Notes: generated from the letters alone by a model not told the origin. A stretch of DNA of 32,000 nucleotides from Fidelibacterota bacterium (GCA_036476315.1 JAZGBI010000098.1:1-32000); one strand, 5' to 3'. Counted from the stretch's first letter, positions 4,699-32,000 are shown. Translations and numbers: made by a program.

Positions 4699-4787
4699 TC
4701 CGTCATAAGAAAAGAAGATTAATCAGAGGAACCAGGTTTTGTCAAAGATCGAGAGGTTTAGGACACGAAAATAATCGTCAGGAACTC

Positions 4788-4817: not shown

Positions 4818-4862
4818 AAGCAACAATTCACTATGGAATTGAACGGTTTCCGTGCATAGGAG

Positions 4863-19589: not shown

Positions 19590-20519
19590 CTAATCCACCA
19601 TTTCCGAACCGCCCAGAACGTCCTCAAGATTAAATCGACCTTCCTTTTCCATCTGCCGTGCCGCATCCACGATCGTCTTTCTTGCCATATTCACCTCTCG
19701 CTTCGGGATGGCCCCTTCCACGGGCTCATACATGGCCTGTTTTTTCTGCGGGAGGTTATTGAGAACCTTGTCCGAGGTCTCCTGAGGCAGACCCTTGAAA
19801 GCGAGTGCGATGGTATCCAGCTCGACCGTGTTCATGATTTCCCGAAGTAGGTTGTCGGGAAAGCTGAAGATGTCATCAAATGTTAGGTAGTACTTCTTGA
19901 TCTCTTTCACCAGGTCAGGTGATTCCCGGGAGATGGTTTCAAGGTATCTCTCCTCCTCCTCGGGAGGCATCTGGCCCAGAATATCAGCGATACTCTTTCC
20001 CCCACCGCGGGAGAAGTCCACGGCCCGGGGAAGGAAGTGAGACTTATGTTCCAATTGCGTGGCCACATTCACGATCGCTTCCAGTGGAACTTCACTCAGA
20101 TTACCCATTTCCATGAGTACCCTTCCTTTAACTTCCGGCGCTAGCCGGTTGATTACCACCATCCGCCTCTCGGATGAAACCTGGGCCGCGGCCATGGCGA
20201 TAATGCGAGGCTCTTCCACTTCCAGAAGTGCCGCGAGCTGCTCATCTGCGAGACTGTCAAGGAATTCGAAGGGTCGTTTCGCATCGGTCACATCCGATTT
20301 CTGGAGTTTCCTCGAAATAAAGGCAAGATAGAATTCATCAACGACTTGCTTTTTGATTAAAGAGGAAACGGGCTCCATTTCACGGATCCGGCTACGGATT
20401 TTTCTCACCTCCGTTTCTCCCAACCCCTTAATGAGTTTAACCGCAAGGCCCTCTCCAAGAACGGAAAAGACTATGGCCACTTTATCCAGGCCGGACAGTC
20501 TGTTATATTCGGTAATCAT
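19590..20519 (-). CDS. FliG-like rotor/switch protein (three-domain architecture, divergent C-terminal torque helix)
   Basis: 309 aa. The N domain LSGLDKVAIVFSVLGEGLAVKLIKGLGETEVRKI matches FliG L.G.eKAAilL..lGee.a..v.k.L...Ei. The middle domain is EEPRIIAMAAAQVSSERRMVVINRLAPEV..V..EM (canonical EHPQ.iA.iL..L....aa.vL..Lp.e). A GGGK linker follows. The C domain is YLTFDDIFSFPDNLLREIMNTVELDTIALAFKGLPQETSDKVLNNL (canonical MFvFEDl..lddr.iq.lLrevd...La.ALKga.eel.eki..Nm). Confidence 0.8.
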   Translation of the reverse strand: MITEYNRLSGLDKVAIVFSVLGEGLAVKLIKGLGETEVRKIRSRIREMEPVSSLIKKQVVDEFYLAFISRKLQKSDVTDAKRPFEFLDSLADEQLAALLEVEEPRIIAMAAAQVSSERRMVVINRLAPEVKGRVLMEMGNLSEVPLEAIVNVATQLEHKSHFLPRAVDFSRGGGKSIADILGQMPPEEEERYLETISRESPDLVKEIKKYYLTFDDIFSFPDNLLREIMNTVELDTIALAFKGLPQETSDKVLNNLPQKKQAMYEPVEGAIPKREVNMARKTIVDAARQMEKEGRFNLEDVLGGSEMVD

Positions 20520-20528
20520 CTCTCGCCT

Positions 20529-22064
20529 CTACTTTTTCTTTTTCTTCTTCCCCTTTTTTTCCTCTTCGGGGGGTGCTGCGGGAGGTGCCTCTTCAGGGGC
20601 CGGAGCCGCTTCAGCCTGAGGGGGTGCCTCTTCTTCCAGCCACTCCTTCACAATGCCGGTTGCCGTCTCGGGCTCACTCACGGCCGCGGACACGATGGAC
20701 TGGCGCGTCGATTTGACTTCGGATTGGAGAACCGCCGGATCTTCACCGGGTGCAACCGGGGGAACCGATGGGGGTGGAGGCGGCGTGGGCGGAGGTGTCA
20801 CTCGGGCCTCTCCGCCTTCAGATTTCGTCACTTTTTTTTTCGGGGGCCTCATCATCCAGGGAGGCGGCATAACGTACCGCGGCTTGCGTCTCCCATTGAA
20901 AAGGATGACAGCAGCGAGAGCCACAACCGCCAGCAATGAAATGGCACTCATGAGATAAATGGGGAGATTACTCACGCCCCCATTCGCCCGACTCATCTCT
21001 CTTTGAACCTGTTGCAGCATTGCAAGCTTTTCCCCTATGACGGAATCCAACCGGGCCTTCTCCTGTTCCATGGCGGTGACTTCATCCACCGCAGCCTGTT
21101 CTTCTTCATCGGTCATGCTGGCCGTTCCCAGCTCGACCCTCAGCTGATTGATTTCGCTGGCCAACTGAACCACTCTCAAGGAGTCTCGTGCCAGAAGGGC
21201 CTCTCTTTGCTCCTCAAACTCTCGACTGAGCCGCTCATTTTCAAGCTTTTGCAGTTCCAAACGCCAAACGGACTGTTCTTCCTCGCGGCGACTGGCTTCT
21301 TCATCCTTCCACCTCTCCAATTCCTGGCGCCAATCCTCCGCAACCTTTGCGTCGGTTTCAGCCTGTTTCTCTTCAAGCTGATCAATCTTCTGGGCAATAC
21401 TCCGCAGTATGATGGCTTCGGCAGTCCGCTCGTCCCTCCTCACCTTAAAGGAAGCTGTCATGATGCTCAACACATCACCCCGGCTGCGGTCATAATGCGA
21501 AGCAACCATAATGATTTGACGTACATTCTCAATCAACTCCGGAGATGACGCTTCCGGTAGAATACAGCTGATTTCCATTTTCTCTATCATAGGTATCGAA
21601 GCCGTAATGTCAGTGTACGATTGAGATATGATCCGTGCCCCTTCTCTTGAGGAAGGCTCCGGGAGGGCCTCTTCGAGTTCCACCACAGACGGCTCTTCAG
21701 TTTCTTCCTCCTCTTGTTCTACCTGGAAATCGAATCCGGGTATGGGGATACCCGTCACCCTTGACTTTCTCCCCTGGCGTTCTTCGGCAGGGGTGGGTGC
21801 GGATTTTTCCGGCGCTTCCTTGGGGGACGGCTCAAATGTCACTTCTTCCCTTACAGTGGGGGTGAACTTCAGATCCACCGTGACATCCAACACATACCGG
21901 TGGTCAGCCAGCACCTTTGACAGGGCAGATTCGATACGTTTTCTAAAATCGTTTTCCAGCATCAACTTCTGTGCCAGATAGGTAGACTCTTGACCCATAC
22001 TTACACCCACAATCGTAGCCCCAACCAGGGTGGCCGCCGCCATAAATGTCAATCTCCTTTTCAT
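20529..22064 (-). CDS. minimal FliF-like (MS-ring family) membrane protein: N-terminal TM, split RBM3-like core, long coiled coil, C-terminal TM, Pro-rich cytoplasmic tail with a FliG-binding-type motif
   Basis: 511 aa. LENDFRKRIESALSKVLADHRYVLDVTVDLKFTPTVREEVTFEPS aligns by eye with Salmonella FliF FANDVESRIQRRIEAILSPIVGNGNVHAQVTAQLDFANKEQTEEHYSPN. IEKMEISCILPE...VRQIIMVASHYDRSRGDVLSIMTASF aligns with IERLSVAVVVNY...IEDLTREAMGFSDKRGDTLNVVNSPF. The second TM is LPIYLMSAISLLAVVALAAVILF. The tail ..EPETATGIVKEWLEEE compares with the FliF C-terminus ..DPRVVALVIRQWMSND. Confidence 0.75.
   Translation of the reverse strand: MKRRLTFMAAATLVGATIVGVSMGQESTYLAQKLMLENDFRKRIESALSKVLADHRYVLDVTVDLKFTPTVREEVTFEPSPKEAPEKSAPTPAEERQGRKSRVTGIPIPGFDFQVEQEEEETEEPSVVELEEALPEPSSREGARIISQSYTDITASIPMIEKMEISCILPEASSPELIENVRQIIMVASHYDRSRGDVLSIMTASFKVRRDERTAEAIILRSIAQKIDQLEEKQAETDAKVAEDWRQELERWKDEEASRREEEQSVWRLELQKLENERLSREFEEQREALLARDSLRVVQLASEINQLRVELGTASMTDEEEQAAVDEVTAMEQEKARLDSVIGEKLAMLQQVQREMSRANGGVSNLPIYLMSAISLLAVVALAAVILFNGRRKPRYVMPPPWMMRPPKKKVTKSEGGEARVTPPPTPPPPPSVPPVAPGEDPAVLQSEVKSTRQSIVSAAVSEPETATGIVKEWLEEEAPPQAEAAPAPEEAPPAAPPEEEKKGKKKKKK
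20832..20840 (-). repeat. A9 homopolymer in the coding strand of the fliF-like gene (Lys-Lys-Lys)
   Basis: The + strand has T9 at 20832-20840, which equals AAA AAA AAA (K409-K411) just after the second TM. Further A-rich runs encode the C-terminal KKGKKKKKK. Confidence 0.9.
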
Positions 22065-22089
22065 AACTTCCCCTATTCTTAACGAATTC

Positions 22090-22872
22090 TTATTCTTCCT
22101 TTTCTACTTTCTGACTCCCGGTCACTCCTGCAGAGCCTCCAGGAGTGGCCTTGAAAGTAATCTCGACCCGCCTGTTTCTCGCCTTTAGTGCAACCGTTTC
22201 ATTCTGCCTCCTGATAATATCTGGGGTTATTAATCGATCCGTAGGGCGATCTCTGGGAACGTTCTCAGCCAATCCGACAGCCTCCAACCGTGTGGGATCA
22301 ACGCCTAACTTAATCAGCTCCCGGACAACGCCGGCAGCACGGGCTGCTGAAAGTTCCCAGTTACTGGGATACTTATCCTGATATCCCTTCGGAAGCGGGT
22401 CACTGTCTGTGTGTCCTTCAACCGCCACAGGAAACTTATTGCCAGGCCTATTTATGGTAGGGACGAGCGTTTCCAATACCTGAACGATACCGGTCATCAA
22501 TTCAGCGGAGCCGGAAGAAAAACTAATTTCCGATGGAATGGCAATTGTCACACCCTTGGGGCTGGTGGATACTTCAACACCCTCAAGCGTATCTTCATTC
22601 TCTTCCAACATTTCAGTGACCGCCTTCTTAACATCAGCCAGATTCATTGCTTGCCCTTCTTTGGTAACCTTGCCAACCTTTTTGCCCATGGAATCGGCCA
22701 TTTCCTGCAGCTTAACCGGATCAATGGTCGAGATGGCCGCCAGCAAAACGAAGAATGCCAATAGGAGGGTCATCATGTCGGCAAAGGTGCTAAACCAACC
22801 GGGGAGCCCCTCTTCAACTTGAGCGCGACCCTTTTCTATAAGTCGCTTTTTCTCTGTCGCCGATACGGCCAA
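22090..22872 (-). CDS. motB: MotB-type stator protein (OmpA-like peptidoglycan-binding C-terminal domain)
   Basis: 260 aa. WFSTFADMMTLLLAFFVLL is a single TM with the conserved Asp (residue 32). The OmpA-like domain reads FSSGSAEL...VEGHTDSDP...SNWELSAARAAGVVREL...NRRVEITF. The TTG start lies 5 nt after the motA stop. Confidence 0.88.
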   Translation of the reverse strand: MAVSATEKKRLIEKGRAQVEEGLPGWFSTFADMMTLLLAFFVLLAAISTIDPVKLQEMADSMGKKVGKVTKEGQAMNLADVKKAVTEMLEENEDTLEGVEVSTSPKGVTIAIPSEISFSSGSAELMTGIVQVLETLVPTINRPGNKFPVAVEGHTDSDPLPKGYQDKYPSNWELSAARAAGVVRELIKLGVDPTRLEAVGLAENVPRDRPTDRLITPDIIRRQNETVALKARNRRVEITFKATPGGSAGVTGSQKVEKEE

Positions 22873-22877
22873 TCAGG

Positions 22878-23666
22878 CTACTCTTCTCTTTTCCACTCTT
22901 TCGGTGGAATAAATGAATTCAGTTTTTCACGTACGATGAGGGGATGTTTTTTCTGATGTATGAGCCTAGCAGCCTCTACCAGCATTGCCTGCATCGTACT
23001 GGTTTGAGAGATACGGGAATTAAGCTTTGCTGCCATGGGCAGAAAGAAGAGATTTGCAAGCACGGCTCCATAAAACGTTGTGATAAGCGCCGCCGACATA
23101 CCTACTCCAAGGGCTTCTGTACCGCCGCCCCCTTCACCACCAAATCCTGAAAGCATGATCACCAGTCCGATGAGTGTCCCGATCATCCCCCACGCCGGCG
23201 CCATGTTTCCCATGGTCTTGAACAGCTCTGCCTGGTGCTTCTCACGGATTTCTCTGTAATCAATACGCGTATTCAGAATCTCGATGATCTCGGGCTCTGA
23301 ATACCCATCCACCACCATCTGAACACCGTCTTTGAAGAAGAAATTCCTGATTCCCCCAATAGCCTGTTCCAATTCTGCCGGTCCTTTTCTTGCGGACTCC
23401 GACACTCCTACCGCCGCATCGACAAGACCTCCCAACCTTACGACTCCGCCTTTGAAGACCGCCCCCATGGCGGCTCCCAGTTTCATGACCTCCGAGAGTG
23501 GAAATGCAACGGAGACTGAAGCTACCATTCCGCCGACTACAATTGCGAAGCTGGCTGCGGAAACGAAACCGCCCACACCTGCACCCACGGCCGAGGCAGC
23601 GATAAAGATTCCCCCACTTATGGAAACCAACCCAATCAGGATTCCTACGAGAGTTGCTATGTCCAT
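22878..23666 (-). CDS. motA: MotA/PomA-type stator protein
   Basis: 262 aa. MDIATLVGILIGLVSISGGIFI is a MotA/PomA-type N-terminus. There is a cytoplasmic loop of about 100 aa between TM2 and TM3. APAWGMIGTLIGLV and FYGAVLANLFFLPMAAKL carry the two conserved prolines (P157, P210). This is a four-TM MotA topology rather than three-TM TolQ/ExbB. Confidence 0.88.
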   Translation of the reverse strand: MDIATLVGILIGLVSISGGIFIAASAVGAGVGGFVSAASFAIVVGGMVASVSVAFPLSEVMKLGAAMGAVFKGGVVRLGGLVDAAVGVSESARKGPAELEQAIGGIRNFFFKDGVQMVVDGYSEPEIIEILNTRIDYREIREKHQAELFKTMGNMAPAWGMIGTLIGLVIMLSGFGGEGGGGTEALGVGMSAALITTFYGAVLANLFFLPMAAKLNSRISQTSTMQAMLVEAARLIHQKKHPLIVREKLNSFIPPKEWKREE

Positions 23667-23675
23667 GAGTTGTTT

Positions 23676-25040
23676 CTACTCCGTACTAAAGCTTGTGGTT
23701 TTTAGCCGATTCTCGTGCAACGCCTTCAATATATTTCGAACATCATCATACTCGGGATCCATCTTAAGCGCCAGATTCCAGTTGATGGTGGCTCTCTGAA
23801 TATCCCCAAGTTTGTAATAGATGGATCCCCGCCGAGCATAGGCCAACGCCAGATTGGGATTCAATTCCAGAGAGGTTTCCACTTCCTGGAGTGCTTCACG
23901 GTAGTCTCCCGAATAGAAGTATCTCAGAGACCGAGACAGATGACGCATGGCCCGGTTCAGATTCTTCTGGCCAATGCCTCTTTCCAACCGCAATGTATTC
24001 ACAGAATCGTCCAGAGTAACCGACTTCTGCCTCAACTGGGCCACCTCGGCACCGAGGTTTCGGGTCTGATATCTGGACACTCTCAGGGAATCTCGCAGAA
24101 CCGCCACGGCATAGTCCGCGGCAAGAAGAGTCGTATCGAGCATGGCTGCCTCGGGAATGGGAGATGGTGCGCCCGGGAGCCCCGGGACCTCCCTCACGGC
24201 AGCGGCCCTGGGTACCGACATATCAAGACCGATGGTGAATCCCGGATGATCCGCTCCGTACGGCTCCTCGGAAAACGTGGGCAAATTTTCTATGTGGGTG
24301 AATCCTAGGCCCAGGCGATAATCCGAGGTAAGGGGGATGCGGAGTCCCACATTGATGCCCGACCCGTCGAATTCACCCACAATATCCAAACCACCCCACT
24401 GGGGTAAGAAAGGCGTGGTTAACAGAAATCCCGCAAAAACACCGACGTTGGAACCGCTCGACGTGGTGTCCGCTGCCGCGGTCGACTCCCGCGTCACCAA
24501 CGCCTGCGAAAACCCTCCCGTTCCGAAACCGATGTACGTGCTGAGATGGTAGCCACCGAATGGCTTCTCACTCCCAATAACGCCGAAAAAGGAAAGGAGC
24601 TTTGTATCCAAATTCAATCCGTTTTCCGTCGCATTTTCAAAAACAACATCATGAAGTCCCAGGGAAAAAGAGATGTTATCACGTACGTACACCCGCTGCT
24701 GAAAATGGAAACCGAATTCCGCCGGCGCCACGTACTGGGACGTATCCAGAAGCACTAAAGATGTGGTGTCAGCCCCCTGACCAGAAGAAAATCCGAGAGT
24801 GAACCTGTCGGTGACATCCATCTGGAAGTAGACTCCTCGGGCCACGTTGAAAGGGGAAAAGTTGTGGATTTCAGCCCCGAAGCCCGTGCTGAATAGATAG
24901 GGTGAACGGGCGGTGCGCGTGGTGGGAATTTTCATCATTACTCCGGGGCGCGTATACGCCACCCGGGTTAACGAATCCAACGGTGAAATGGCCACCACCA
25001 AAAACATTACCACAAAAATTGTCTTTACTTTCCCAATCAT
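23676..25040 (-). CDS. secreted beta-rich domain + coiled coil + C-terminal TPR protein, function unknown
   Basis: 454 aa with a signal/anchor (MIGKVKTIFVVMFLVVAISPL). About 270 aa have an amphipathic beta-strand pattern (GFHFQQRVYV, GGLDIVGEFDGSGINVGLRIPL, YRLGLGFTHI). A heptad-like segment follows, then TPR repeats (YSGDYREALQEVETSLELNPNLALAYARRGSIYYKLGDIQRATINWNLALKMDPEY). Confidence 0.6.
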   Translation of the reverse strand: MIGKVKTIFVVMFLVVAISPLDSLTRVAYTRPGVMMKIPTTRTARSPYLFSTGFGAEIHNFSPFNVARGVYFQMDVTDRFTLGFSSGQGADTTSLVLLDTSQYVAPAEFGFHFQQRVYVRDNISFSLGLHDVVFENATENGLNLDTKLLSFFGVIGSEKPFGGYHLSTYIGFGTGGFSQALVTRESTAAADTTSSGSNVGVFAGFLLTTPFLPQWGGLDIVGEFDGSGINVGLRIPLTSDYRLGLGFTHIENLPTFSEEPYGADHPGFTIGLDMSVPRAAAVREVPGLPGAPSPIPEAAMLDTTLLAADYAVAVLRDSLRVSRYQTRNLGAEVAQLRQKSVTLDDSVNTLRLERGIGQKNLNRAMRHLSRSLRYFYSGDYREALQEVETSLELNPNLALAYARRGSIYYKLGDIQRATINWNLALKMDPEYDDVRNILKALHENRLKTTSFSTE

Positions 25041-25042
25041 GA

Positions 25043-26020
25043 CTACCTCTCGGCGTTCCGCAGCTCCAGTTGAGCCAGTTTGAGATATTCACTGTCAGGA
25101 TAATTGTCTATGATATTGGCGAACGCTTCAATCGCTTGAATCTCATCCCCCATCTGGCGGTAGACCAGCCCGGTCAAGATCATGGCATCGTCCTGCTTAT
25201 CTGATCTGAATAGAGGCTCAATCGCCACCAATGTTCTCAGGGTCTCACCGTATTCACCCATCTGATAGTAGCAGTCCGCTATCCAGTAGAGAACGTTTCC
25301 GGCTGTAACATCATCAACGTCTCCAAGGTACAGCTCCGCAAAATGTCGCAGCGCCATGCTGAAATCCTCTCGTTGATAGGCAAAAACGGCATTCATATAG
25401 ACCGTCCGGTTAAAGGGCCGCTTTTCATTTGTCAGTCGACGTGACGGGGCTTCGACCAAATTAATCTCCATTGGACTTACCTGGGTCAATTCCTCTTCCC
25501 GGGGTTCCTCCGCAGCAACGGGTACGGTGACCTCCTCATCATCGGCTGCTTTAGTAGCCGTGGCGTCAGCGGGAGCCACGTTCAACGGCATTACTTCAGA
25601 CGTTGATACCCGGGCCTCCTCCGGGTGAGAGATCGGCTCCCTTGCCAACAGATCGGCTATCATGCCGCGCAAGTCCTCATTCTCTTGCCTCAGGCTCCCC
25701 ACCTCCCTCTCAAAAGCGGCCTCAAGAGTCTCAATCTTTTGGCTAATTCGATTCAATGTTTGCTGCATTTCTCTCGTGGATGCAATAAAGACAGATCCGC
25801 TGGGTGCCTTATCGACAAAGAATTTTACTTTCTCCGGGGGCGCTTTCACGAGCCGGGTAACTTCTTCATCCCCTGTAGCCGATTCAATCACAATTCCCAG
25901 ATCGAGAAAGAAAATGTCATTCCCCACGGGTCCCGCTGACTGGCCGGCCAGATAGCCTGAAAGTACCATCGCAAAAGCGAGATTTCGCAGCAGATAGATC
26001 ATGGCGCGAACGATGCTCAT
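25043..26020 (-). CDS. CpoB/YbgF-like periplasmic coiled-coil + TPR protein
   Basis: Signal peptide, coiled coil (QQTLNRISQKIETLEAAFEREVGSLRQENEDLRGMIADLL), acidic linker, then YMNAVFAYQREDFSMALRHFAELY...AGNVLYWIADCYYQMGEYGETL...DDAMILTGLVYRQMGDEIQAIEAFANIIDNYPDSEYLKLAQLEL. This is collinear with the YbgF C-terminal repeat pattern (Y..A......y..A...F..F...yP.s....nA.YWLGe.yy....y..A). ATG 26020 overlaps the upstream stop as ATGA; the ORF opens at 26035. Confidence 0.6.
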   Translation of the reverse strand: MSIVRAMIYLLRNLAFAMVLSGYLAGQSAGPVGNDIFFLDLGIVIESATGDEEVTRLVKAPPEKVKFFVDKAPSGSVFIASTREMQQTLNRISQKIETLEAAFEREVGSLRQENEDLRGMIADLLAREPISHPEEARVSTSEVMPLNVAPADATATKAADDEEVTVPVAAEEPREEELTQVSPMEINLVEAPSRRLTNEKRPFNRTVYMNAVFAYQREDFSMALRHFAELYLGDVDDVTAGNVLYWIADCYYQMGEYGETLRTLVAIEPLFRSDKQDDAMILTGLVYRQMGDEIQAIEAFANIIDNYPDSEYLKLAQLELRNAER

Positions 26021-27147
26021 TCGTACTCTTCCCAATCTATCGTATAAGAATAGCCGATATACGACCCAAATTCTGCGGGTATGACGAGTTCAAATGTCCC
26101 AGTTGCCCCCGGGAGAAGAGAGGAGTCCGTGGTGATACCAGAGTCGAAGGAATAGTAACTTCCCGAGACAAAAGAGGTCAGGGTTTGAGTTTCACCACTC
26201 CAGTTCTTCCTGAATACAAAATTCACTTTGACAAAATCTGACCGGCGGCCACCAATGTTCTTCACCTGGCCGGAAAAAGTGGTATTGTTGGACCGGTCCC
26301 TTTTTTCGGAAATATTTCCCATGAGAACAATATTGGCCGCTCGATCCCTGGCGGCAAGCCGTTCCGTGGGTTCTCCTGCCACATAGCGAGGTTGTGCCAG
26401 CTTCGGCATGGGAGGTGGACTGTAGGTCTCCCGAATCTGTTCGGGAATATATTCCGGCTCCTCCTCCGCAATAACGTTTTCCACAATCCGAACCACCTGG
26501 CTCCGGTCTATCACCAGATACCCTACCAACGTCTCGACTTTCAAGATTTCCTCATCTTGATACACGACTTTTCCAAAGACAGTGCTTCCGTTGTCTAGAA
26601 TAATCTCTTTGCTGTAAATGGAGAGGGGATTCGTCCACATTTCACTTCTCGCCTGAAGATCCCGAACCTGGCCTCCCAGATGATCCATTTCCGCCGCCAG
26701 TTTCTTCAGTTCAAAACTGAGTTCGGTGGTGACATATTCTTCCTGTGGCAACCGCTCAGCTTCTTTCCCTGCGGCAGCCGCTCCCGTTTCACCGGGCTTT
26801 TTCGCCACGACCAATGACAGTTCAATTTCCTGGTCTTCATCGGCCACCGCGAAATCGAGGGAGGCGGAACCTGCATCCTCCTCGGTCGCCTTCACACTAT
26901 ACCTGCCGGGCGACACCTTCTTAAACTCAAACTTACCCTTACCACCGAACCGCTTCCCCGTTGAGGTTTGGTCCACCTCTCCCCCGTCTGCATCGAGAAG
27001 CACCACGTCAGCAGCAGGTACTTTTTCCCCCTCTTGGTCTTTCACGACACCGCTGACGGTGTACGTCTCATCCTGAGCGACCAGGAATGACCCCACAAGG
27101 GCTGTAGCAAAAACAATAAGGATAAAGTTCTTGGCAGGTTGTTTCAT
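26017..27147 (-). CDS. secreted multidomain protein: CarboxypepD_reg-like beta-sandwich, coiled coil, small beta (SH3-like) domain, C-terminal FxLYD-like beta-sandwich
   Basis: 376 aa with a signal peptide (ILIVFATALVGSFLVAQ). YTVSGVVKDQEGEKVPAADVVLLDADG...GKFEFKKVSPGRYSV is CarboxypepD_reg-like. LSFELKKLAAEMDHLGGQVRDLQARS is coiled coil. IILDNGSTVFGKVVYQDEEILKVETLVGYLVIDRSQVVRIV is a small beta domain. The C-terminal FSGQVKNIGGRRSDFVKVNFVF...LLPGATGTFELVIP is FxLYD-like. Confidence 0.5.
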   Translation of the reverse strand: MKQPAKNFILIVFATALVGSFLVAQDETYTVSGVVKDQEGEKVPAADVVLLDADGGEVDQTSTGKRFGGKGKFEFKKVSPGRYSVKATEEDAGSASLDFAVADEDQEIELSLVVAKKPGETGAAAAGKEAERLPQEEYVTTELSFELKKLAAEMDHLGGQVRDLQARSEMWTNPLSIYSKEIILDNGSTVFGKVVYQDEEILKVETLVGYLVIDRSQVVRIVENVIAEEEPEYIPEQIRETYSPPPMPKLAQPRYVAGEPTERLAARDRAANIVLMGNISEKRDRSNNTTFSGQVKNIGGRRSDFVKVNFVFRKNWSGETQTLTSFVSGSYYSFDSGITTDSSLLPGATGTFELVIPAEFGSYIGYSYTIDWEEYE

Positions 27148-27210
27148 GCGAGTACCTCGGATTTACCTCGTATTCAACCCCAGATTTCGAAAAGCCGTTA
27201 GGCGTCATAG

Positions 27211-27239
27211 AGTGTAAACCCTCCGGTTCAAAATGTCAA
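27211..27239 (-). promoter_or_regulatory. candidate sigma70-type internal promoter (TTGACA-N17-TACACT) for the downstream seven genes
   Basis: The - strand reads TTGACA (complement of 27234-27239), exactly 17 nt, then TACACT (complement of 27211-27216). It lies in the only sizeable gap (160 nt, 27148-27307) of the cluster, about 65 nt upstream of the ATG at 27147. Confidence 0.35.
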
Positions 27240-27307
27240 GAGAAAAGGTCCGGAGGCTAAATGGGGCCCGAAAACGGCCCGTGGTCCGGATGGGCGGGAT
27301 TTGTATC

Positions 27308-30073
27308 CTAGAACGTATAGTTGAGAGAGGCTCTGATAAGAGTGCTCCTTTTGGACTCGCCGTCAATCTTTTTGAATCGCAATCCCCCATCGAAGCGAGC
27401 CCGGAGATATTCGGTGATCCGGTAATTGACTCCTGCACGGATCCCCAGCCGGCTGAATTCCTCGTTCCCCGTACCCGAGGTACGATTGATCCCCGCCAAA
27501 AGCTTGAGTCGATTCCCCAGCACATCATACGTTCCACTCAGGGTTACATTGGTAATATTCTGACCGCCATAATCATAGGCAAAATCCTCGGGGATGCCAA
27601 ATGTGCTTCTGTTCACCGAAACAATCGCAGTGGTTTTCAGAGGAAAGGGGTATTCCGTCATCACAGACAGATTGATCACATCTGATTTCAGATTCGGGGA
27701 TACAAAGGTGGAATCGAAGAACAGCGTATCCCCAGTAAGATTCGTACCGAAGTATGGGGCGGAAGGGCGGTCATCAAACTGATCCGCCCGGTCAAGCAAA
27801 ACGTAGTTGACTGACAGGTTGTGATTGAACCCCGAGAAGCTCACTCGGTGGGTGAGTCCAAAACTGGCATTGACACTTTTCGTGAAATTGCGAAGGTCCT
27901 CCAGGTCGATTCTTCGTGCCTCAGGATCGACGTTTACCGTATCCAGGGTCGTTTTACCGTTATCGCGGTCCTGAACCCGGTAGCTCAACGCGAAAGAAGG
28001 GAGATCCCCTCCCGGGTAAATTCCCGCGTTCATAGTTACCGTATTTGTTGTGGTCACGTCCGTCACCACACGGAGAATGTCATCATCCTGATGCTTATAG
28101 ATAAGGTTGAGAAGAAGGCGATTCTGGAAAAACCCGACTCTGTCTGAAATCGTATATTGCCGATTGTTTTTCTGAATATAGGGATTGCCCAGTGAATTGA
28201 ACTCGGGGCCCACCTGCACGAATTCGAAACTGAGGCGATTCTGAAGTAAATTGCCCGAGGCTCTAAAATTGTACGCCGCAGAAGGAAGCTTCAGAATCGC
28301 CTTCACGGGCTCTTGAAACAGGAGCAGCGTGTCCACTGGTATGAGTGGCCTGAGATTCAGATTCAGCACAAACAGGTCTTCATAATCCTTGGGATCGAAT
28401 GGGATGTCAAAGGATCCTCCAATCTTTCCGTCCAGTGTCGAATCACCCAAAACACCCAGAGTGTCGAGTTCGCTTTTGCTGAACGCGCCACCCCATATAT
28501 TCCCATTGAACATACTGAATGCAAATCCCGCCTCGATTCCGATCTGACGCCTAAAGAGAGAGAACTTTAAATCGGAACCCATCACAATATTGTCCTGAGG
28601 GGAATCACCGGCCCAGCTTTCCTCGTCCGCCAGATCAATAGAATAGTTGTTCTCCAGGAGCAGATTACTAAGGTCACGGTAGGTGTAGATATCCGGGCTA
28701 ATTGCCAGGGAAAGCGCTTCAACCGTGTCGACTTCTATCTTGGCATTGTCCAGAATAGGCTCTACCGAAGTAATATCATCCTTTGCCTTCAACCAGTTGA
28801 AGCCCAGCTGAAAGATCTTTCCGCTGCCAAAACTCAACCGTGTGGAAAAAATATCTTTTTGGAAGGTGTATCCCTTCCTGTTGAGCTGGTATCTTATGGA
28901 TTCTCCCTGAAGTTCCACGCCTTCAGACAGGTAGGTCTCTCCTTCACCAAGTCTCCCCTGGATTTTTCTTTCCAATTCGCCTTTCACCACATGAAGGTTA
29001 ACGAAGCCCAGTTGCAGGTCTGCATCCACGCCTCTCACTCGCTTGCCGTCCAGAGTGAATCGGGAAAGCCGGGAATTGAAATCCCCGAACTTCAACCGCA
29101 GGTAATCGCCGGCTTCCAAGCTCAACCGATACCGGTTTCTCGGTTGCTTGAAAGAATCCTCTTCCGATGTGAGTTTTAGATCCGATTTGAATCGTAAAGG
29201 ACCCCACTCTCCAGAGAAGTTCGCCGTCGTCTGACTGATTGCCAGTGGATCACCCTCATCGATTTCATCAAAAGAGTAACCCCCGTTTATCCTGCCACCA
29301 TAGGTCAGGACCCGCTCCACAGCTTCCACTTTCTCCACGTGCTCCCGAACGGCCTCAAACGACCAGGCTTTTGGCTCCACAGGGCGACCCGTCAAAGCGG
29401 TCAGTTCTATCCGTACCTGATGCCTCCCCGGGAGGAGAAGTTTAGGCTCATACGTCACAAGATCGGGACCCACAAGAGAGCGGGCCGTTACATCACGACC
29501 GTCAACGAGGAGTCTGACCGAGGATACATCCACAGAGTCCACATTGAAAAGTGAAGCCGCAATGAGGACATCATCGAACGGGATTCTTGCTCCGGGCAAG
29601 GGACTGAAAATAATAACGGCATCAACTCCCACCGCAGGTGCTGCCTCAACCACCGTCGTCGGCTCCGGTTCCGGGCTAATCTGAACAGAAACTGGGGCAT
29701 CCTGGGGATCGGTCTCTGGGAAGTTGAGTACGGACCCATCCACCAACGTTGCCGAAATGAAGTATTCCACCCCTTCGAGAGAAAGGCGTTCCAGAGGAAT
29801 TTCGCCACGCCACCCCTCCGTCGTTCCTTCCATCTCCACTTCAATGAAGCCCTCTTCACCCGTTTCTCGATAGAAAAGGTCTACCCTCTCCACATCAACA
29901 GGAGAGGAGACATCCGCCTGTATGACCAGGACTTCAGTGGCCGTGTGGCGAATAACCGGCTGATGGGTGATGACCCCTGTGGCCTGAGCGTGAAGAGAGG
30001 TAAATGTCAAAATAACACAACTTGACGTGAGAAAAATCCTTTTCCACGGCGAACCGCTTGTCTGCTGATCCAT
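27308..30073 (-). CDS. large outer-membrane beta-barrel protein with two N-terminal Ig-like/beta-sandwich domains
   Basis: 921 aa with a signal peptide (ILTFTSLHAQA). Two beta-sandwich-like domains come first; the second reads SVRLLVDGRDVT...YEPKLLLPGRHQVRIEL...WSFEA, resembling bacterial Ig/CopC-like folds. About 650 aa of alternating-strand sequence rich in G/Y/N/S/F follow, ending ..RASLNYTF with a terminal Phe, the usual OMP C-terminal signature. Confidence 0.65.
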   Translation of the reverse strand: MDQQTSGSPWKRIFLTSSCVILTFTSLHAQATGVITHQPVIRHTATEVLVIQADVSSPVDVERVDLFYRETGEEGFIEVEMEGTTEGWRGEIPLERLSLEGVEYFISATLVDGSVLNFPETDPQDAPVSVQISPEPEPTTVVEAAPAVGVDAVIIFSPLPGARIPFDDVLIAASLFNVDSVDVSSVRLLVDGRDVTARSLVGPDLVTYEPKLLLPGRHQVRIELTALTGRPVEPKAWSFEAVREHVEKVEAVERVLTYGGRINGGYSFDEIDEGDPLAISQTTANFSGEWGPLRFKSDLKLTSEEDSFKQPRNRYRLSLEAGDYLRLKFGDFNSRLSRFTLDGKRVRGVDADLQLGFVNLHVVKGELERKIQGRLGEGETYLSEGVELQGESIRYQLNRKGYTFQKDIFSTRLSFGSGKIFQLGFNWLKAKDDITSVEPILDNAKIEVDTVEALSLAISPDIYTYRDLSNLLLENNYSIDLADEESWAGDSPQDNIVMGSDLKFSLFRRQIGIEAGFAFSMFNGNIWGGAFSKSELDTLGVLGDSTLDGKIGGSFDIPFDPKDYEDLFVLNLNLRPLIPVDTLLLFQEPVKAILKLPSAAYNFRASGNLLQNRLSFEFVQVGPEFNSLGNPYIQKNNRQYTISDRVGFFQNRLLLNLIYKHQDDDILRVVTDVTTTNTVTMNAGIYPGGDLPSFALSYRVQDRDNGKTTLDTVNVDPEARRIDLEDLRNFTKSVNASFGLTHRVSFSGFNHNLSVNYVLLDRADQFDDRPSAPYFGTNLTGDTLFFDSTFVSPNLKSDVINLSVMTEYPFPLKTTAIVSVNRSTFGIPEDFAYDYGGQNITNVTLSGTYDVLGNRLKLLAGINRTSGTGNEEFSRLGIRAGVNYRITEYLRARFDGGLRFKKIDGESKRSTLIRASLNYTF

Positions 30074-30095
30074 CTTATTCCTTACTTGTCCCCTG

Positions 30096-31661
30096 CTATT
30101 GAAATTTGATGATGAGTTCTTTTCTTCGCCCGTGATTATCCTCCATATCGAAAATCAACTCCCGTTCAGCAACGATCACCATAACGGCGGTGGCCAGAAA
30201 TGCCCCCGTTTCTTTCTCCACACTCCCGGTAACCGTTACCCGAAGACCGGTCGTAATCTCACCTCCCTCAATCTCGGTATCCGGTCCTAATTTCACAATA
30301 CCGGACAAAGTTGAAGGATCGAGATCCCCTTCCTGGACGGTGATGTCGGTGATTTCGAACTGCTCGTTTACTACCGGAGAATTAACCGTCGCCAAGAGCA
30401 CTACCTGTGGAAGGCGGATACGTTCAGCAACTATGTCTCCCGTCTCTTCGTCCAAGGTTCCCACTACCGTCACCTTGAGACCGACAGTCAGTTCGTCTAC
30501 TTCTATCACGGTCGACCCTGTTACAATTACCCGGCCCGATAAGGCGGAAGCCTCAATTTCACCCACCTTCACCTCGATTTCAGACAGTTCAACCAGGCCC
30601 TCCTCGCTGACAGCGGTGATAAGTCCCGTGATTCTCAATTTAGGAATGACAACGATCATTTGTGTGGCTTCAAGAACTTCGGTCTCCCTGTTGAAAATCC
30701 CCACCACGGTGACCTCTGCCCCATAGATGATATCGTCACCTTCGATTACCGTCCCCTCGGTTATCTTCACCTCGGCGGGGAGAGTTTCTCGATCGCCCTC
30801 CACAACGGTCACGTCGGAAATGGGAAACCGGTTTCCCGTGAACGTTGATGACACAATCCCTCTTATCGTGACGCGCTCCGAAACTTCGATGAGAGTGGCC
30901 TCCACGTTCCCAGTTTGTTCATCCAGGATGCCGGTGAGAGTGATTACCGCCCCCGCTTTTACGTCAGTCCCCTCAAAGACCGTGCCTCCCGTGACCTCTA
31001 CAGTGTCAGACAGATCCTGGGCACTCACCCCTCCACCCAATACGGATATACCGGAAAGTGTAAATCGGCCTGCCGATATACCCGAGGAGGCTTCTCCCCT
31101 GACCTTTACCGTGGCGAGAACCTCGATTTTACCGTCTGCGTTCGATTCTACAACGGTCCCCGGTACTACGGAATGAACGCTTCCGGATATGAGATTGGTC
31201 AGCTCGATGGCTCCCTCAAGACTGATGATGATATCTCCAGAATCGGGATCAGTCAAAACCCACAACTCGGTCCCCTTGATCGAGGCAACCGACGTGGGGG
31301 TGGTGATGGTGAATTGCTGGGTCTGCTCTTTCACCGTTGCCTTCAAGGTGCCATAACTCAACTCCACACGCTTGGAAATTACCCCCTCGGTGCGACTTCC
31401 TGCTATCCGCGTCTCCGTGTTCTGTCTAATCTTCAGTTGAGACTTATCATCCAAAAACAGAGCGATGGCCAGCCCATCATCGCCGGTGACCACAAAATCA
31501 CCATCAAAAAGCGAGGAGCCGCGCCGGAGGGTCTGAAAGTCTGGCACTTGTTCTCCCTTATGACTGACCTGTCCGGACGTCTTCATGGTCAACGCTATCC
31601 TGTCAACGGCCAGTAGTCCACTGGTGACAGTGACCAGGAACAATAACTTCCGCATCATCAC
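30096..31661 (-). CDS. secreted FecR-domain protein followed by four tandem DUF5666-like modules
   Basis: 521 aa with a signal peptide (MMMRKLLFLVTVTSGLLA). The FecR-like region is LFDGDFVVTGDDGLAIALFLDDKSQLKIRQNTETRI...LSYGTLKATV...FTITTPTSVASIKGTELWV. Four modules of about 78 aa follow. The start overlaps the upstream stop (ATGA at 31658-31661). Confidence 0.65.
   Translation of the reverse strand: MMMRKLLFLVTVTSGLLAVDRIALTMKTSGQVSHKGEQVPDFQTLRRGSSLFDGDFVVTGDDGLAIALFLDDKSQLKIRQNTETRIAGSRTEGVISKRVELSYGTLKATVKEQTQQFTITTPTSVASIKGTELWVLTDPDSGDIIISLEGAIELTNLISGSVHSVVPGTVVESNADGKIEVLATVKVRGEASSGISAGRFTLSGISVLGGGVSAQDLSDTVEVTGGTVFEGTDVKAGAVITLTGILDEQTGNVEATLIEVSERVTIRGIVSSTFTGNRFPISDVTVVEGDRETLPAEVKITEGTVIEGDDIIYGAEVTVVGIFNRETEVLEATQMIVVIPKLRITGLITAVSEEGLVELSEIEVKVGEIEASALSGRVIVTGSTVIEVDELTVGLKVTVVGTLDEETGDIVAERIRLPQVVLLATVNSPVVNEQFEITDITVQEGDLDPSTLSGIVKLGPDTEIEGGEITTGLRVTVTGSVEKETGAFLATAVMVIVAERELIFDMEDNHGRRKELIIKFQ
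30171..31112 (-). repeat. four tandem protein-level repeats of about 78 codons inside the FecR-domain gene
   Basis: Residues 184-261, 262-340, 341-419 and 420-497 share the pattern (V/I)x(I/V)xGx(I/V)...F.(I/L)(S/T)(D/E)(I/V).V........L....V.(I/V)T.GT.(I/F)EG....G..(V/I)T(V/L).G....ETG...A..(I/M).V. Examples are AVITLTGILDEQTGNVEATLIEV, EVTVVGIFNRETEVLEATQMIVV, KVTVVGTLDEETGDIVAERIRL and RVTVTGSVEKETGAFLATAVMVI. Confidence 0.75.
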
Positions 31662-32000
31662 CGGACCTCAGTGGAAATCAAGCTCGCGGTTCCCTGTCTG
31701 AACTCCTCTACCAGGGCGTTCAAGGTGGACATATCGCTTTCTGTGCCATCAAGAGTGAAGGTGCCGGAGGCCTGGTATCCCGTTAAGGGACCGCCCGGTG
31801 TGAAGTAGGCCTGCAGAATCTCTTCCGGCAGGATCTCCTGCAATGCCTGCATGATTGGATTTACGGTCATATCTTTAATCATGAAAGCGTAAATGGGACT
31901 GTTGATCCTCTCAATACCTTCGGTTGTGGAAATCCGTTTCTGGATCTGCCATACATAAATGCTGCCGGCCATGAGGTCCACCACCCCTGCCGTGGGATAC
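31658..32000 (-). CDS. 3' part of a hypothetical protein (5' end beyond the window), first visible gene of the cluster
   Basis: The reading frame is open from the window edge (..YPTAGVVDLMAGSIYVWQIQKRISTTEG...EEFRQGTASLISTEVR) and the stop overlaps the next start. I recognise no family with confidence. Confidence 0.5.
   Translation of the reverse strand, partial: YPTAGVVDLMAGSIYVWQIQKRISTTEGIERINSPIYAFMIKDMTVNPIMQALQEILPEEILQAYFTPGGPLTGYQASGTFTLDGTESDMSTLNALVEEFRQGTASLISTEVR

What the first reader, a model, noticed from the sequence alone, without database searches (positions are those of the whole stretch)
19590..32000. Orphan FliF-like/FliG-like/MotA/MotB rotor-stator module in one operon with TPR, FecR-repeat and outer-membrane barrel proteins: a candidate flagellum-independent envelope machine
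Ten same-strand genes are packed with overlaps or small gaps: 4-nt ATGA overlaps at 31658 and 26017, then gaps of 2, 5, 9, 9, 22 and 25 nt, plus one 160-nt gap. A clear terminator at 19532-19566 closes the set.

The last four genes encode the core torque-generating parts of a flagellar motor: the MotA/MotB stator, a FliG-like rotor protein, and a FliF-like membrane ring protein whose C-terminal tail carries the FliG-binding-type motif. Nothing else flagellar is present in 32 kb. There is no FlhA/B, FliPQR, FliI, FliM/N, rod, hook, flagellin or FlgH/I.

The partner genes are instead periplasmic coiled-coil/TPR proteins, a CarboxypepD_reg-like protein, a 921-aa outer-membrane barrel and a FecR-domain protein with DUF5666-like repeats. 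That is the type of composition (ion-driven motor, TPR adaptors, OM barrels) seen in trans-envelope energy transducers such as Myxococcus Agl-Glt or Tol-Pal, but here it is built around FliF/FliG.

Inference: an ion-motive-force-driven rotor that transmits work across the periplasm to the outer membrane, for surface motility, secretion, OM remodelling or adhesin movement, rather than spinning a filament.
Basis: partly seen in the sequence, partly recalled or inferred. Interest (0 to 1): 0.92.

Follow-up and report, generated by a model that had tools for sequence, protein, structure and literature searches.

The report
Flagellum-less FliF/FliG/MotAB envelope motor
A marine SAR406 (Marinimicrobia) bacterium, from a phylum not known to make flagella, keeps only the torque-making core of the flagellar motor in a conserved seven-gene operon with an outer-membrane barrel and periplasmic adaptor proteins, which points to an undescribed ion-driven envelope machine.

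Summary
Ten tightly packed minus-strand genes end in MotA, MotB, a FliF-like and a FliG-like protein, followed by a terminator hairpin. The rest of the window is housekeeping.

The assignments are real. The FliG-like protein has all three Pfam FliG domains. The FliF-like model matches only FliF RBM3/S-ring structures. The stator has the plug, the channel Asp and a peptidoglycan-binding domain.

The contig is Marinimicrobia (SAR406/Fidelibacterota). In 80 species-level genomes, all named ones from that phylum, the conserved unit is seven genes: g4, a CpoB-like TPR protein, an outer-membrane-barrel/TPR protein, MotA, MotB, FliF-like and FliG-like. Typical dN/dS is 0.02-0.13. The stator-rotor charge residues are invariant or nearly so.

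The parts that tie a motor to a flagellum are missing. FliF RBM1/RBM2 is absent and the FliM-binding EHPQR motif is degenerate. A published census found fliG in 8 of 12 Marinisomatota MAGs and fliM/fliN in none. The only isolate is non-motile.

The FecR protein, the 921-aa protein and the first gene form a separate three-gene module that also occurs alone elsewhere.

Best reading: a flagellum-independent rotor-stator whose ~20 nm coiled-coil stalk reaches an outer-membrane complex. Its function is unknown; a Tol-Pal-like envelope role is my leading guess. I found no prior description.

The parts
19590..20519 (-). g10, FliG-like rotor protein (309 aa) with N, M and C domains
   Evidence: - **Pfam:** FliG_N 52, FliG_M 57 and FliG_C 82 bits, all above cut-offs. 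TIGR00207 scores 113 bits, below its 227 cut-off.
- **PDB:** Aquifex FliG 3hjl, E 4e-20.
- **Conservation in 73 orthologues:** K259, K260 and K273 are invariant; E265 68/73, E268 70/73, R274 70/73. The G172-G173-G174 hinge is 70, 73 and 73 of 73.
- **Degenerate motif:** the EHPQR FliM-binding motif is not kept.
- **Selection:** dN/dS 0.02-0.13.
20529..22064 (-). g9, FliF-like ring protein (511 aa): signal peptide or TM1, RBM3 domain, ~143-residue helical stalk, TM helix, FliG-binding-type C-terminal helices, poly-Lys tail
   Evidence: - **Family:** PF08345 scores 28.7 bits against a 23.8 cut-off. There is no PF01514 hit, so RBM1/2 are absent.
- **AF2 model (positions number the 504-aa annotated product, 7 residues shorter than the 511-aa ORF):** RBM fold at residues 20-200, helices 208-306 and 312-355, TM 360-384, C-terminal helices 436-472.
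- **Fold search:** the top 14 Foldseek PDB hits are all FliF RBM3/S-ring (E 3e-8 to 4e-6); the next hit is at E 0.05.
- **C-tail:** it aligns with the Vibrio FliF C-terminus.
- **Stalk length:** 184-202 residues, median 197, in 67 orthologues.
- **Start codon:** homologues support the ATG at 22064 rather than the annotated start.
22090..22872 (-). g8, MotB/PomB-type stator B subunit (260 aa)
   Evidence: - MotB_plug scores 60.6 bits and OmpA 44.5 bits.
- It aligns to C. sporogenes MotB and Vibrio PomB through the plug and TM helix.
- The channel residue Asp32 is invariant, 73/73.
22878..23666 (-). g7, MotA/PomA-type stator A subunit (262 aa)
   Evidence: - MotA_ExbB scores 92.5 bits. The best NCBIfam matches are MotP and PomA, while tolQ and exbB are negligible.
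- Full-length match to C. sporogenes MotA at E 2e-38 and to PomA at E 2e-30.
- R93, K94, G95 and E100 are 73/73, and position 98 is always D or E.
23676..25040 (-). g6, outer-membrane beta-barrel (res ~48-277) with a periplasmic coiled coil (303-353) and a TPR domain (358-448)
   Evidence: - One of the two best-conserved non-stator proteins of the module: 70% mean column identity in 20 homologues picked from the 120 best hits.
- The AF2 model has ~14 strands, then a long helix and TPR repeats. Its confidence is low (pLDDT 54.6).
- Foldseek hits are outer-membrane barrels (PorV, OmpG, NanC, KdgM, FapF), with target-normalised TM-scores up to 0.70.
- Present in 73/80 loci.
25043..26020 (-). g5, CpoB/YbgF-like periplasmic protein (325 aa): signal/TM segment, coiled coil, variable linker, TPR domain
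   Evidence: - TPR_6 scores 39.9 bits. TIGR02795 tol_pal_ybgF gives E 3e-9 and PRK10803 CpoB E 2e-6, both below their cut-offs.
- Best PDB hits are CpoB 6g5s (E 1e-6) and YbgF 2xev (E 9e-4).
- It is the least conserved member.
26017..27147 (-). g4, secreted protein (376 aa): CarboxypepD_reg beta-sandwich (30-104), then a conserved C-terminal ~240 aa of unknown fold
   Evidence: - PF13620 scores 40.7 bits.
- Only residues 136-376 are conserved in the divergent modules L083 and L085.
- 34% of positions are at least 95% conserved in 58 orthologues.
- There is no Pfam or PDB match for the C-terminal part.
19532..19566 (-). Intrinsic-terminator-like hairpin plus U-run closing the operon
   Evidence: The sequence was read directly and folded.
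27148..27307 (-). 160-nt gap upstream of g4, the likely start of the seven-gene unit; promoter-like TTGACA-17-TACACT at 27239-27211
   Evidence: The consensus scan finds this site, but such sites are no more frequent than in shuffled sequence. In most relatives the module begins at g4, with unrelated or divergently transcribed genes upstream.
27308..32000 (-). Adjacent but separate module: g3 (921 aa, unassigned, possibly an outer-membrane protein), g2 (FecR-domain protein with internal repeats) and g1 (389 aa, cut by the window end)
   Evidence: The triad lies next to the motor only in L004 and L005. It occurs alone in L087 (Marinimicrobia) and in L088 (Melioribacteraceae, followed by a CHASE2 cyclase).

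Best explanation
Genes g4-g10 encode a flagellum-independent rotary machine of the cell envelope, conserved across Marinimicrobia.

**Proposed mechanism.**
1. MotA/MotB stator units are anchored to peptidoglycan by MotB's OmpA-like domain. They conduct H+ or Na+ past the invariant MotB Asp32.
2. The MotA cytoplasmic charges (R93/K94, D/E98, E100) push on the conserved charged helix of the FliG-like C-domain (K259/K260, E265/E268, K273/R274).
3. The FliG-like N-domain sits on the two C-terminal helices of the FliF-like protein, as in a flagellar MS/C-ring junction.
4. The FliF-like protein oligomerises through its single RBM3 domain.

**How it differs from a flagellar rotor.**
- It has no RBM1/RBM2, so it has no housing for an export gate and no rod.
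- Its FliG lacks the FliM-binding motif, so there is no switch complex and no chemotactic reversal.
- A length-conserved helical stalk of ~143 residues (up to ~21 nm) separates RBM3 from the membrane helix. This would place the ring deep in the periplasm.

**Proposed output.** At that depth the ring could engage the CpoB-like TPR protein g5, the g4 protein, and the periplasmic coiled-coil/TPR arm of the outer-membrane barrel g6. Work from the ion gradient would therefore reach the outer membrane rather than a filament.

**Shown versus inferred.**
- Shown: homology, domain loss, synteny, purifying selection and residue conservation.
- Inferred: ring formation, rotation, the contacts with g4-g6, and the role.

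My leading guess for the role is envelope maintenance of the Tol-Pal type (outer-membrane tethering, remodelling or division). The module is kept across all the genomes sampled, and one partner is CpoB-like. Surface motility, adhesin movement or energising secretion are not excluded.
For: - **Real homologues:** Pfam and NCBIfam; PDB sequence matches; the FliF-like fold matches only FliF RBM3 rings.
- **Interface residues:** stator-rotor and channel residues are invariant or nearly so in 73 orthologues.
- **Selection:** all seven genes are under strong purifying selection, typical dN/dS 0.02-0.13.
- **Synteny:** the gene order is fixed in 80 species-level genomes, all named ones from Marinimicrobia/Fidelibacterota. 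Missing members are mostly explained by contig ends. The order is also kept in very divergent versions (L083-L086).
- **Lost flagellar features:** there is no PF01514 and the EHPQR motif is degenerate.
- **Published census (PMC10359470, Suppl. Dataset 3):** of 12 Marinisomatota MAG rows read, 8 have fliG. None has fliM, fliNY or cheA/B/R.
- **Phenotype:** the only cultured member of the phylum is non-motile (PMC11652737).
- **Partners:** g6 is predicted as an outer-membrane barrel with a coiled coil and TPR domain. The TPR domain of g5 best matches CpoB/YbgF.
- **Stalk:** its length is conserved at 184-202 residues.
Against: - No whole genome could be searched, so the absence of flhA, fliI, fliPQR, rod, hook and flagellin genes in this organism is not shown directly.
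- The census covers only fliG/M/N and che genes, in incomplete MAGs of relatives.
- It is unknown whether the non-motile isolate carries the module.
- The g6 model has low confidence (pLDDT 54.6).
- The FliF tail match to canonical FliF is weak on its own (9.6 bits).
- Nothing tests physical contact between the FliF-like protein and g4-g6.
- A wide ring on long stalks would have to turn within or past the peptidoglycan layer, and it is not clear how.
- The Tol-Pal-like role rests on one sub-threshold CpoB similarity and on the argument from universal retention.
Confidence: 0.72

Rival explanations
1. This is an unusually arranged part of a normal flagellar system. The export apparatus, rod, hook, filament and FliM/N are encoded elsewhere in the genome, and these four genes are the organism's ordinary motor genes.
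For: - All four proteins are true homologues of flagellar parts.
- The stator is of the flagellar (PomA/MotP-like) type with a plug.
- Only about 42 kb of a 272-kb contig could be read.
Against: - The FliF-like protein lacks RBM1/RBM2 and carries a ~143-residue stalk in a place where canonical FliF has none.
- The FliM-binding motif of FliG is degenerate across the family.
- None of 12 Marinisomatota MAGs has fliM or fliN, while 8 have fliG.
- The only isolate of the phylum is non-motile.
- The four genes are always fused to g4-g6 and never to another flagellar gene in 80 loci with flanks of up to 10 kb.
Confidence: 0.06
2. This is a decaying relic of a lost flagellum with no present function.
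For: Non-flagellated lineages such as Lysobacter and many Actinobacteria are reported to keep leftover flagellar genes (titles and abstracts seen).
Against: - dN/dS is about 0.02-0.13 for all seven genes.
- The functional residues are invariant.
- Gene order and reading frames are intact across the phylum and across FliF-like divergence down to about 21-26% identity.
- New features were gained: the stalk, a poly-Lys tail in 63/71, and dedicated partner proteins.
Confidence: 0.02
3. It is the same machine, but its job is locomotion or surface work. It would drive gliding, move adhesins, or energise secretion across the outer membrane in the way GldLM/PorLM powers gliding and the type IX system. 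It would not maintain the envelope.
For: - Marinimicrobia encode proteins with type IX (Por) C-terminal sorting domains: a 2724-aa protein in L087 and PMC5596340.
- The best fold hit of the g6 barrel is PorV of the type IX translocon. The similarity is generic to barrels and the model is weak.
- TPR and beta-sandwich accessory proteins are typical of gliding and type IX machinery.
Against: - No Gld, Por or Glt family is matched above noise.
- The isolate is non-motile.
- It is not known whether these genomes lack PorL/M.
Confidence: 0.2

Closest known systems
Bacterial flagellar motor core (MotA5B2 stator, FliG ring, FliF MS-ring)
   Same: - The four motor proteins are homologous.
- MotB has the plug, the channel Asp and a peptidoglycan-binding domain.
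- The charged MotA-FliG interface is kept.
- The FliF C-terminal helices are of the FliG-binding type.
- The RBM3 fold is the one that builds the S-ring.
   Different: - FliF has no RBM1/RBM2.
- No FliM/N binding motif is present.
- No export gate, rod, hook or filament genes lie nearby, and relatives lack fliM/fliN.
- A ~143-residue helical stalk is inserted between RBM3 and the membrane helix.
- Most members carry a poly-Lys tail.
- The module is always linked to an outer-membrane-barrel/TPR protein, a CpoB-like protein and g4.
Tol-Pal system (TolQRA-TolB-Pal-CpoB)
   Same: - Both are ion-driven inner-membrane motors of the MotA/TolQ superfamily.
- Both have a long periplasm-spanning helical protein, peptidoglycan binding, and a coiled-coil + TPR protein resembling CpoB/YbgF.
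- Both are seven-gene envelope operons retained across a lineage.
   Different: - The motor is of the flagellar type, not the TolQR type.
- Force would pass through a cytoplasmic FliG ring instead of directly from TolQR to TolA.
- There is no TolB or Pal.
- The stalk protein has the opposite topology to TolA, with its globular domain at the N-terminus and its membrane helix at the C-terminus.
GldLM/PorLM gliding and type IX secretion motor, and Myxococcus Agl-Glt
   Same: Both use an ion-driven motor whose rotation or force is carried across the periplasm by an elongated protein to an outer-membrane-associated complex that includes TPR proteins.
   Different: - There is no sequence relationship to GldL/M, AglRQS or Glt proteins.
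- Those systems have no FliG/FliF-type rotor.
Zorya anti-phage system (ZorAB)
   Same: Both contain a MotB-like subunit. ZorB profiles hit g8.
   Different: There is no match to ZorA, ZorC or ZorD. The context is a housekeeping chromosomal one with phylum-wide synteny, not a defence island.

Membership tests
Canonical bacterial flagellar motor | FliG with N, M and C domains | tested here: met
   All three Pfam domains score above their cut-offs. The match to Aquifex FliG covers most of the protein, residues 38-299 of 309. It is nevertheless below the NCBIfam equivalog cut-off, 113 against 227 bits.
Canonical bacterial flagellar motor | FliG EHPQR motif that binds FliM | tested here: not met
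   The window reads E-E-P-R. In 73 orthologues only the first E is conserved (71/73). The H position is variable, P is kept in 51/73, and the Q position is R, S or K.
Canonical bacterial flagellar motor | FliF with RBM1-RBM2 (PF01514) as well as RBM3 | tested here: not met
   Only PF08345 (RBM3) is found, with no PF01514 hit at E <= 1. The AF2 model shows a single RBM fold followed by long helices.
Canonical bacterial flagellar motor | MotA/MotB stator with plug, channel Asp, peptidoglycan-binding domain and charged MotA loop | tested here: met
   Asp32 is 73/73, and MotA R93, K94 and E100 are 73/73.
Canonical bacterial flagellar motor | FliM/FliN switch complex encoded in the genome | tested here: inconclusive
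   This genome could not be searched. In a published table, none of the 12 Marinisomatota MAG rows read has fliM or fliNY, while 8 have fliG.
Canonical bacterial flagellar motor | Type III export apparatus, rod, hook and filament genes | not testable with these tools
   None is present in the 32-kb window, in 10 kb further upstream, or among the recurrent neighbour families around 80 related loci with flanks of up to 10 kb.
Tol-Pal system | TolQ/TolR-type motor, TolA, TolB and Pal | tested here: not met
   TIGR02796 tolQ gives E 0.095, against E 7e-51 for MotP. No TolA, TolB or Pal family hit appears in any of the seven proteins.
Tol-Pal system | CpoB/YbgF coiled-coil + TPR protein | tested here: inconclusive
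   For g5, TIGR02795 scores 37 bits (cut-off 90) and PRK10803 27.7 bits (cut-off 383). The best PDB hits are CpoB at E 1e-6 and YbgF at E 9e-4.
Gliding / type IX motors (GldLM, Agl-Glt) | GldL/GldM or AglRQS motor and Glt/Gld accessory families | tested here: not met
   Only noise-level TPR hits were found: GltC at E 0.039, GltE at E 0.086 and PorW at E 0.018.
Zorya defence system | ZorA with a long tail, plus ZorC/ZorD | tested here: not met
   PADLOC matches ZorB profiles to g8 only. Nothing matches MotA or any other module protein.

The most novel reading that the evidence does not exclude
This would be a previously unrecognised class of bacterial nanomachine. It is a FliG/FliF-ring rotor driven by MotAB that has no export gate, rod or filament. 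It reaches across the periplasm on a ~20 nm coiled-coil cage to a dedicated outer-membrane-barrel/TPR complex, and it is a standard part of the envelope of the SAR406/Marinimicrobia phylum. If so, the flagellar rotor-stator pair is a separable module that can exist and be selected for without type III secretion. It would be either an exaptation after flagellar loss or a surviving relative of a pre-flagellar rotor.
Probability: 0.5. Interest if true: 0.95.

Novelty: new variant of a known kind. Interest (0 to 1): 0.86.

Why it matters
- **A new use for the flagellar rotor.** Every known non-flagellar use of MotA-family motors (Ton, Tol, Gld/Por, Agl, Zorya) acts without a FliG/FliF rotor. A FliG ring has only been known as part of flagella. 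A phylum-wide, selected FliF(RBM3)-FliG-MotAB unit without the secretion core would show that torque generation and type III export can be separated. That bears directly on the long-running question of how the flagellum was assembled in evolution.
- **An abundant, barely cultured clade.** It would add a new way of delivering ion-motive energy to the outer membrane in one of the most abundant ocean bacterial clades.
- **A practical warning.** fliG, motA and motB cannot be used alone as markers of flagellar motility in metagenome surveys.

Tried and rejected
- **Ten-gene operon rejected.** Synteny in 80 loci and the independent occurrence of the g1-g3 triad show two modules.
- **921-aa protein as the machine's barrel rejected.** It is absent from nearly all modules. 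It has no Pfam, NCBIfam or PDB match.
- **CarboxypepD_reg domain as a core feature rejected.** It is absent from the L083 and L085 versions.
- **Zorya or another defence system rejected**.
- **Sub-domain searches.** Pfam searches of g1, the g6 barrel, the g4 C-terminus and the g3 C-terminus gave nothing. A PDB sequence search of g4 gave nothing.
- **Literature.**
  - Ten full-text searches found no paper that mentions the phylum together with FliG, FliF and MotA.
  - The MotAB evolution paper (PMC12505986) does not mention this lineage by name.
- **Type IX link left untested.** The presence or absence of PorL/M in these genomes could not be checked.
- **Taxonomy of divergent members.** Looking up names for the most divergent family members gave almost none.

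Full report

Yes. Ten ORFs lie head to tail on the minus strand from the window end down to 19590. The stated spacings are correct: gaps of 2, 5, 9, 9, 22, 25 and 160 nt, and an ATGA overlap at 26017. The junction at 31658 reads GGTGATGATG, which is a GTGA or TGATG overlap rather than ATGA.

The first gene is cut by the window edge. On the source contig it is 389 aa and is preceded by a Na+/H+ antiporter gene. Just after the FliG-like stop codon there is a G+C-rich hairpin followed by UUUUU at 19532-19566.

Profile searches confirm the domain calls:
- FliG_N, FliG_M and FliG_C, all above the Pfam thresholds.
- YscJ_FliF_C at 28.7 bits against a cut-off of 23.8.
- MotA_ExbB, MotB_plug plus OmpA, several TPR families, CarboxypepD_reg and FecR.

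The other 19.5 kb encodes purine biosynthesis, BioY, acetyl-CoA synthetase, pyruvate phosphate dikinase, a short-chain dehydrogenase, peptidases, a beta-eliminating lyase and a DUF481 protein. Nothing there is flagellar.

**2. Where does it come from?**

The FliG-like protein is encoded on NCBI assembly GCA_044232415.1, contig JAZHCE011268101.1 (272,842 bp). Homologues of the FliF-like protein that carry names are all from Candidatus Marinimicrobia, Neomarinimicrobiota or Fidelibacterota, that is SAR406 or Marine Group A. NCBI labels the identical 921-aa protein as coming from a Candidatus Neomarinimicrobiota MAG.

**3. Are the flagellar assignments genuine?**

- **FliG-like.** It aligns with Aquifex FliG (3hjl, E 4e-20) over residues 38-299 of 309.
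- **FliF-like.**
  - The AlphaFold model (16-sequence alignment, mean pLDDT 68.5) has one alpha/beta ring-building fold at residues ~20-200.
  - The fold is interrupted by a disordered acidic insert that holds the invariant LPIPGFDF motif.
  - Then come helices 208-306 and 312-355, a membrane helix at 360-384, and two C-terminal helices at 436-472. These positions number the 504-aa annotated product.
  - In the PDB the model's 14 best matches are all FliF RBM3/S-ring structures (E 3e-8 to 4e-6). The next hit is at E 0.05.
  - The family profile also matches the Vibrio FliF C-terminus, which binds FliG...PE.A..IVKEW... against ...PELAAQVVKNW....
- **MotA.** It matches Clostridium MotA and Vibrio PomA over its full length (E 2e-38 and 2e-30).
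- **MotB.** It matches through the plug, the transmembrane helix and the OmpA-like domain.

So the 'spurious assignment' route to refutation fails.

**4. What is the conserved unit?**

A scan of one genome per GTDB species returned 106 confirmed loci. The best 80 were kept, and every one whose record title names a taxon is Marinimicrobia, Fidelibacterota or 'FCB group'; about a quarter are titled only 'uncultured bacterium'. I searched them with tblastn using the window's proteins.

| Protein | Loci with a hit (of 80) |
|---|---|
| FliF-like | 80 |
| MotB | 78 |
| FliG-like | 78 |
| MotA | 76 |
| g6 | 73 |
| g4 | 64 |
| g5 | 61 |
| g3 | 2 |
| g2 | 1 |
| g1 | 2 (weak, opposite strand) |

The order is always the same, and most missing members fall at contig ends. 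The g1-g3 hits that matter are in the two closest relatives (L004, L005). Genes further upstream and downstream are varied housekeeping genes, often on the other strand.

An exhaustive profile search of 1.84 billion cluster representatives found only 313 clusters at E <= 0.001, so the family is narrow. Two very divergent versions have FliF-like proteins of 442 and 632 aa, at 21-26% identity over the aligned parts. Both still show the same seven-gene order with a 309-aa FliG-like protein. In these versions only the C-terminal ~240 residues of g4 are present.

The g1-g2-g3 triad occurs on its own at two other places:
- In another Marinimicrobia contig, as 406 aa, FecR 697 aa and 939 aa (L087).
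- In a Melioribacteraceae contig, where a CHASE2 cyclase follows it (L088).

The machine is therefore seven genes. The FecR and 921-aa genes are neighbours in this lineage only. The 160-nt gap before g4 is the likely operon start.

**5. Is it functional?**

Pairwise dN/dS over 14-22 independent close pairs is typically 0.02-0.13 for g4, g6, MotA, MotB, FliF-like and FliG-like. A few nearly identical pairs are noisier, reaching 0.36. For g5 it is 0.07-0.29.

Conservation in 73 orthologues:
- MotB Asp32 is invariant.
- MotA R93, K94, G95 and E100 are invariant, and position 98 is always acidic. These align with the E. coli R90/E98 region that contacts FliG (role as stated in PMC12505986).
- The FliG-like C-terminal helix keeps K259, K260 and K273 (all 73/73), E265 (68), E268 (70) and R274 (70). 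From the 3hjl alignment and my knowledge of E. coli FliG, I place these at the R281, D288/D289 and R297 positions.
- The hinge glycines G172, G173 and G174 are kept in 70, 73 and 73 of 73.

These results argue against a decaying relic.

**6. What has been lost relative to a flagellum?**

- PF01514 (FliF RBM1/RBM2) is absent. From established structural work, that region surrounds the export gate.
- The FliG EHPQR motif, the FliM docking site, is degenerate across the family.
- The supplementary table of PMC10359470 scores each MAG for fliG, fliM, fliNY and cheA/B/R. Of the 12 Marinisomatota rows I could read, 8 have fliG and none has fliM, fliNY or any che gene. The four without fliG are 53-77% complete.
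- Fidelibacter multiformis, the only isolate of the phylum, is described as non-motile (PMC11652737).
- A study of SAR406 genomes mentions flagellar genes only for other bins (PMC5596340).

I could not search a whole genome, so direct absence of the export apparatus, rod, hook and filament remains unproven.

**7. What has been gained?**

- **A stalk.**
  - About 143 helical residues lie between RBM3 and the membrane helix.
  - The spacing from the end of RBM3 to the PPW motif after the membrane helix is 184-202 residues (median 197) in 67 orthologues, which run from 37% identity to the window protein upward. That looks like a ruler.
  - At 0.15 nm per residue the two helices span up to ~21 nm.
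- **N-terminus.**
  - It looks like a cleavable signal peptide, with a small residue before an invariant Gln.
  - If cleaved, the RBM3 ring would sit at the far end of the stalk, near the peptidoglycan or outer membrane. An uncleaved anchor does not fit the unequal helix lengths (99 and 44 residues). This geometric argument is inference.
- **A poly-Lys tail** in 63 of 71 FliF-like proteins.
- **Three dedicated partners.**
  - g6 is one of the two best-conserved non-stator proteins (70% mean column identity in 20 homologues picked from the best hits). Its model has ~14 beta strands, a 50-residue helix and TPR repeats. Confidence is low (pLDDT 54.6), but the PDB hits are outer-membrane barrels such as PorV, OmpG, NanC/KdgM and FapF.
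  - g5 has the coiled-coil plus TPR layout of CpoB/YbgF. CpoB and YbgF are its best PDB hits (E 1e-6 and 9e-4).
  - g4 has a conserved C-terminal region with no known relative.

**8. How does it most likely work?**

Peptidoglycan-anchored MotAB units turn a FliG ring held on the C-terminal helices of a ring of FliF-like subunits. There is no switch complex, no export gate and no rod. The stalks carry the RBM3 ring across the periplasm to the g4/g5/g6 complex at the outer membrane, so the ion gradient does work there.

The homology, the losses, the gains, the linkage and the selection are shown. Ring formation, rotation, the contacts and the output are inferred.

For the role I favour envelope maintenance of the Tol-Pal kind, at roughly 0.35. 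The reasons are that the module is kept in every sampled genome and that a CpoB-like partner is present. Gliding, adhesin movement or powering secretion come next, at about 0.2 together. In support of those:
- The phylum has type IX sorting-domain proteins.
- No Gld, Por or Glt family is matched, which weakens the case.

Zorya-type defence is excluded.

**9. Comparison with known systems**

It works like a flagellar rotor-stator at the inner membrane, and like Tol, Ton or Gld systems in delivering energy across the periplasm. It is not a member of the canonical flagellar motor: two defining features were tested and not met (RBM1/2 and the FliM-binding motif). It is not a member of Tol-Pal, Gld/Por, Agl-Glt or Zorya either.

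The recent classification of MotAB homologues treats stators with a torque-generating interface as flagellar (PMC12505986). This stator is of that type in a lineage that appears to have no flagellum.

**10. Novelty**

Ten full-text searches found no paper that names the phylum together with FliG, FliF and MotA (and earlier). NCBI annotates these proteins only as 'flagellar M-ring protein FliF C-terminal domain-containing protein', 'tetratricopeptide repeat protein' or 'hypothetical protein'.

I rate it a new variant of a known kind: flagellar motor parts in a new, filament-less, outer-membrane-coupled architecture. There is a real chance that it deserves to be called a new class of machine.

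Noticed in passing
window 27308-32000; L087 4630-10820; L088 6186-10403: A conserved three-gene module recurs at unrelated loci in Marinimicrobia and in Melioribacteraceae. It comprises a ~360-406-aa unknown protein, a FecR-domain protein and an 800-940-aa unassigned protein ending in an aromatic residue. In Melioribacteraceae a CHASE2 guanylate/adenylate cyclase follows it. It looks like an envelope sensing or uptake unit of unknown function.
   Followed up: partly
window 22043-22064: The GenBank gene call for the FliF-like protein (504 aa) starts 7 codons too late. Homologues begin M-K-x-R-L, which matches the ATG at 22064 (511 aa).
   Followed up: yes
window 20529-20560 (C-terminus of the FliF-like protein): A run of 6-10 lysines ends the FliF-like protein in 63 of 71 orthologues, but not in the two most divergent versions. 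Canonical FliF, as far as I know, has no such tail. It may bind anionic lipid or nucleic acid.
   Followed up: partly
window 18749-19486: A DUF481-family (outer-membrane barrel-like) protein lies directly downstream of the terminator on the same strand. It is found in that position in 7 of 80 related loci, so it is probably not part of the machine.
   Followed up: partly
window 17288-18706: A beta-eliminating lyase gene (tryptophanase or tyrosine phenol-lyase family) follows the module in 27 of 80 loci. This is unusually stable synteny for a gene with no obvious link to the motor.
   Followed up: no
published table, PMC10359470 Suppl. Dataset 3: Marinisomatota MAGs score fliG = 1 but fliM = 0 and fliNY = 0. 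Surveys that use fliG, motA or motB alone as motility markers would wrongly call this abundant clade flagellated.
   Followed up: partly
L087 1-3707: A protein of more than 2700 aa in a Marinimicrobia contig carries Laminin_G_3, CARDB and CarboxypepD_reg domains and a type IX (Por_Secre_tail) sorting domain. This shows that type IX substrates exist in the phylum.
   Followed up: no
window 309-7012: Genes for purB-, purF-, purD-, purN- and purH-type enzymes lie together on the plus strand. This is an ordinary purine biosynthesis cluster.
   Followed up: no
source record: The contig name JAZHCE011268101.1 implies an assembly with more than a million records, so this is a metagenome-scale or host-associated assembly rather than a binned genome. 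No genome bin is available for a gene census.
   Followed up: no
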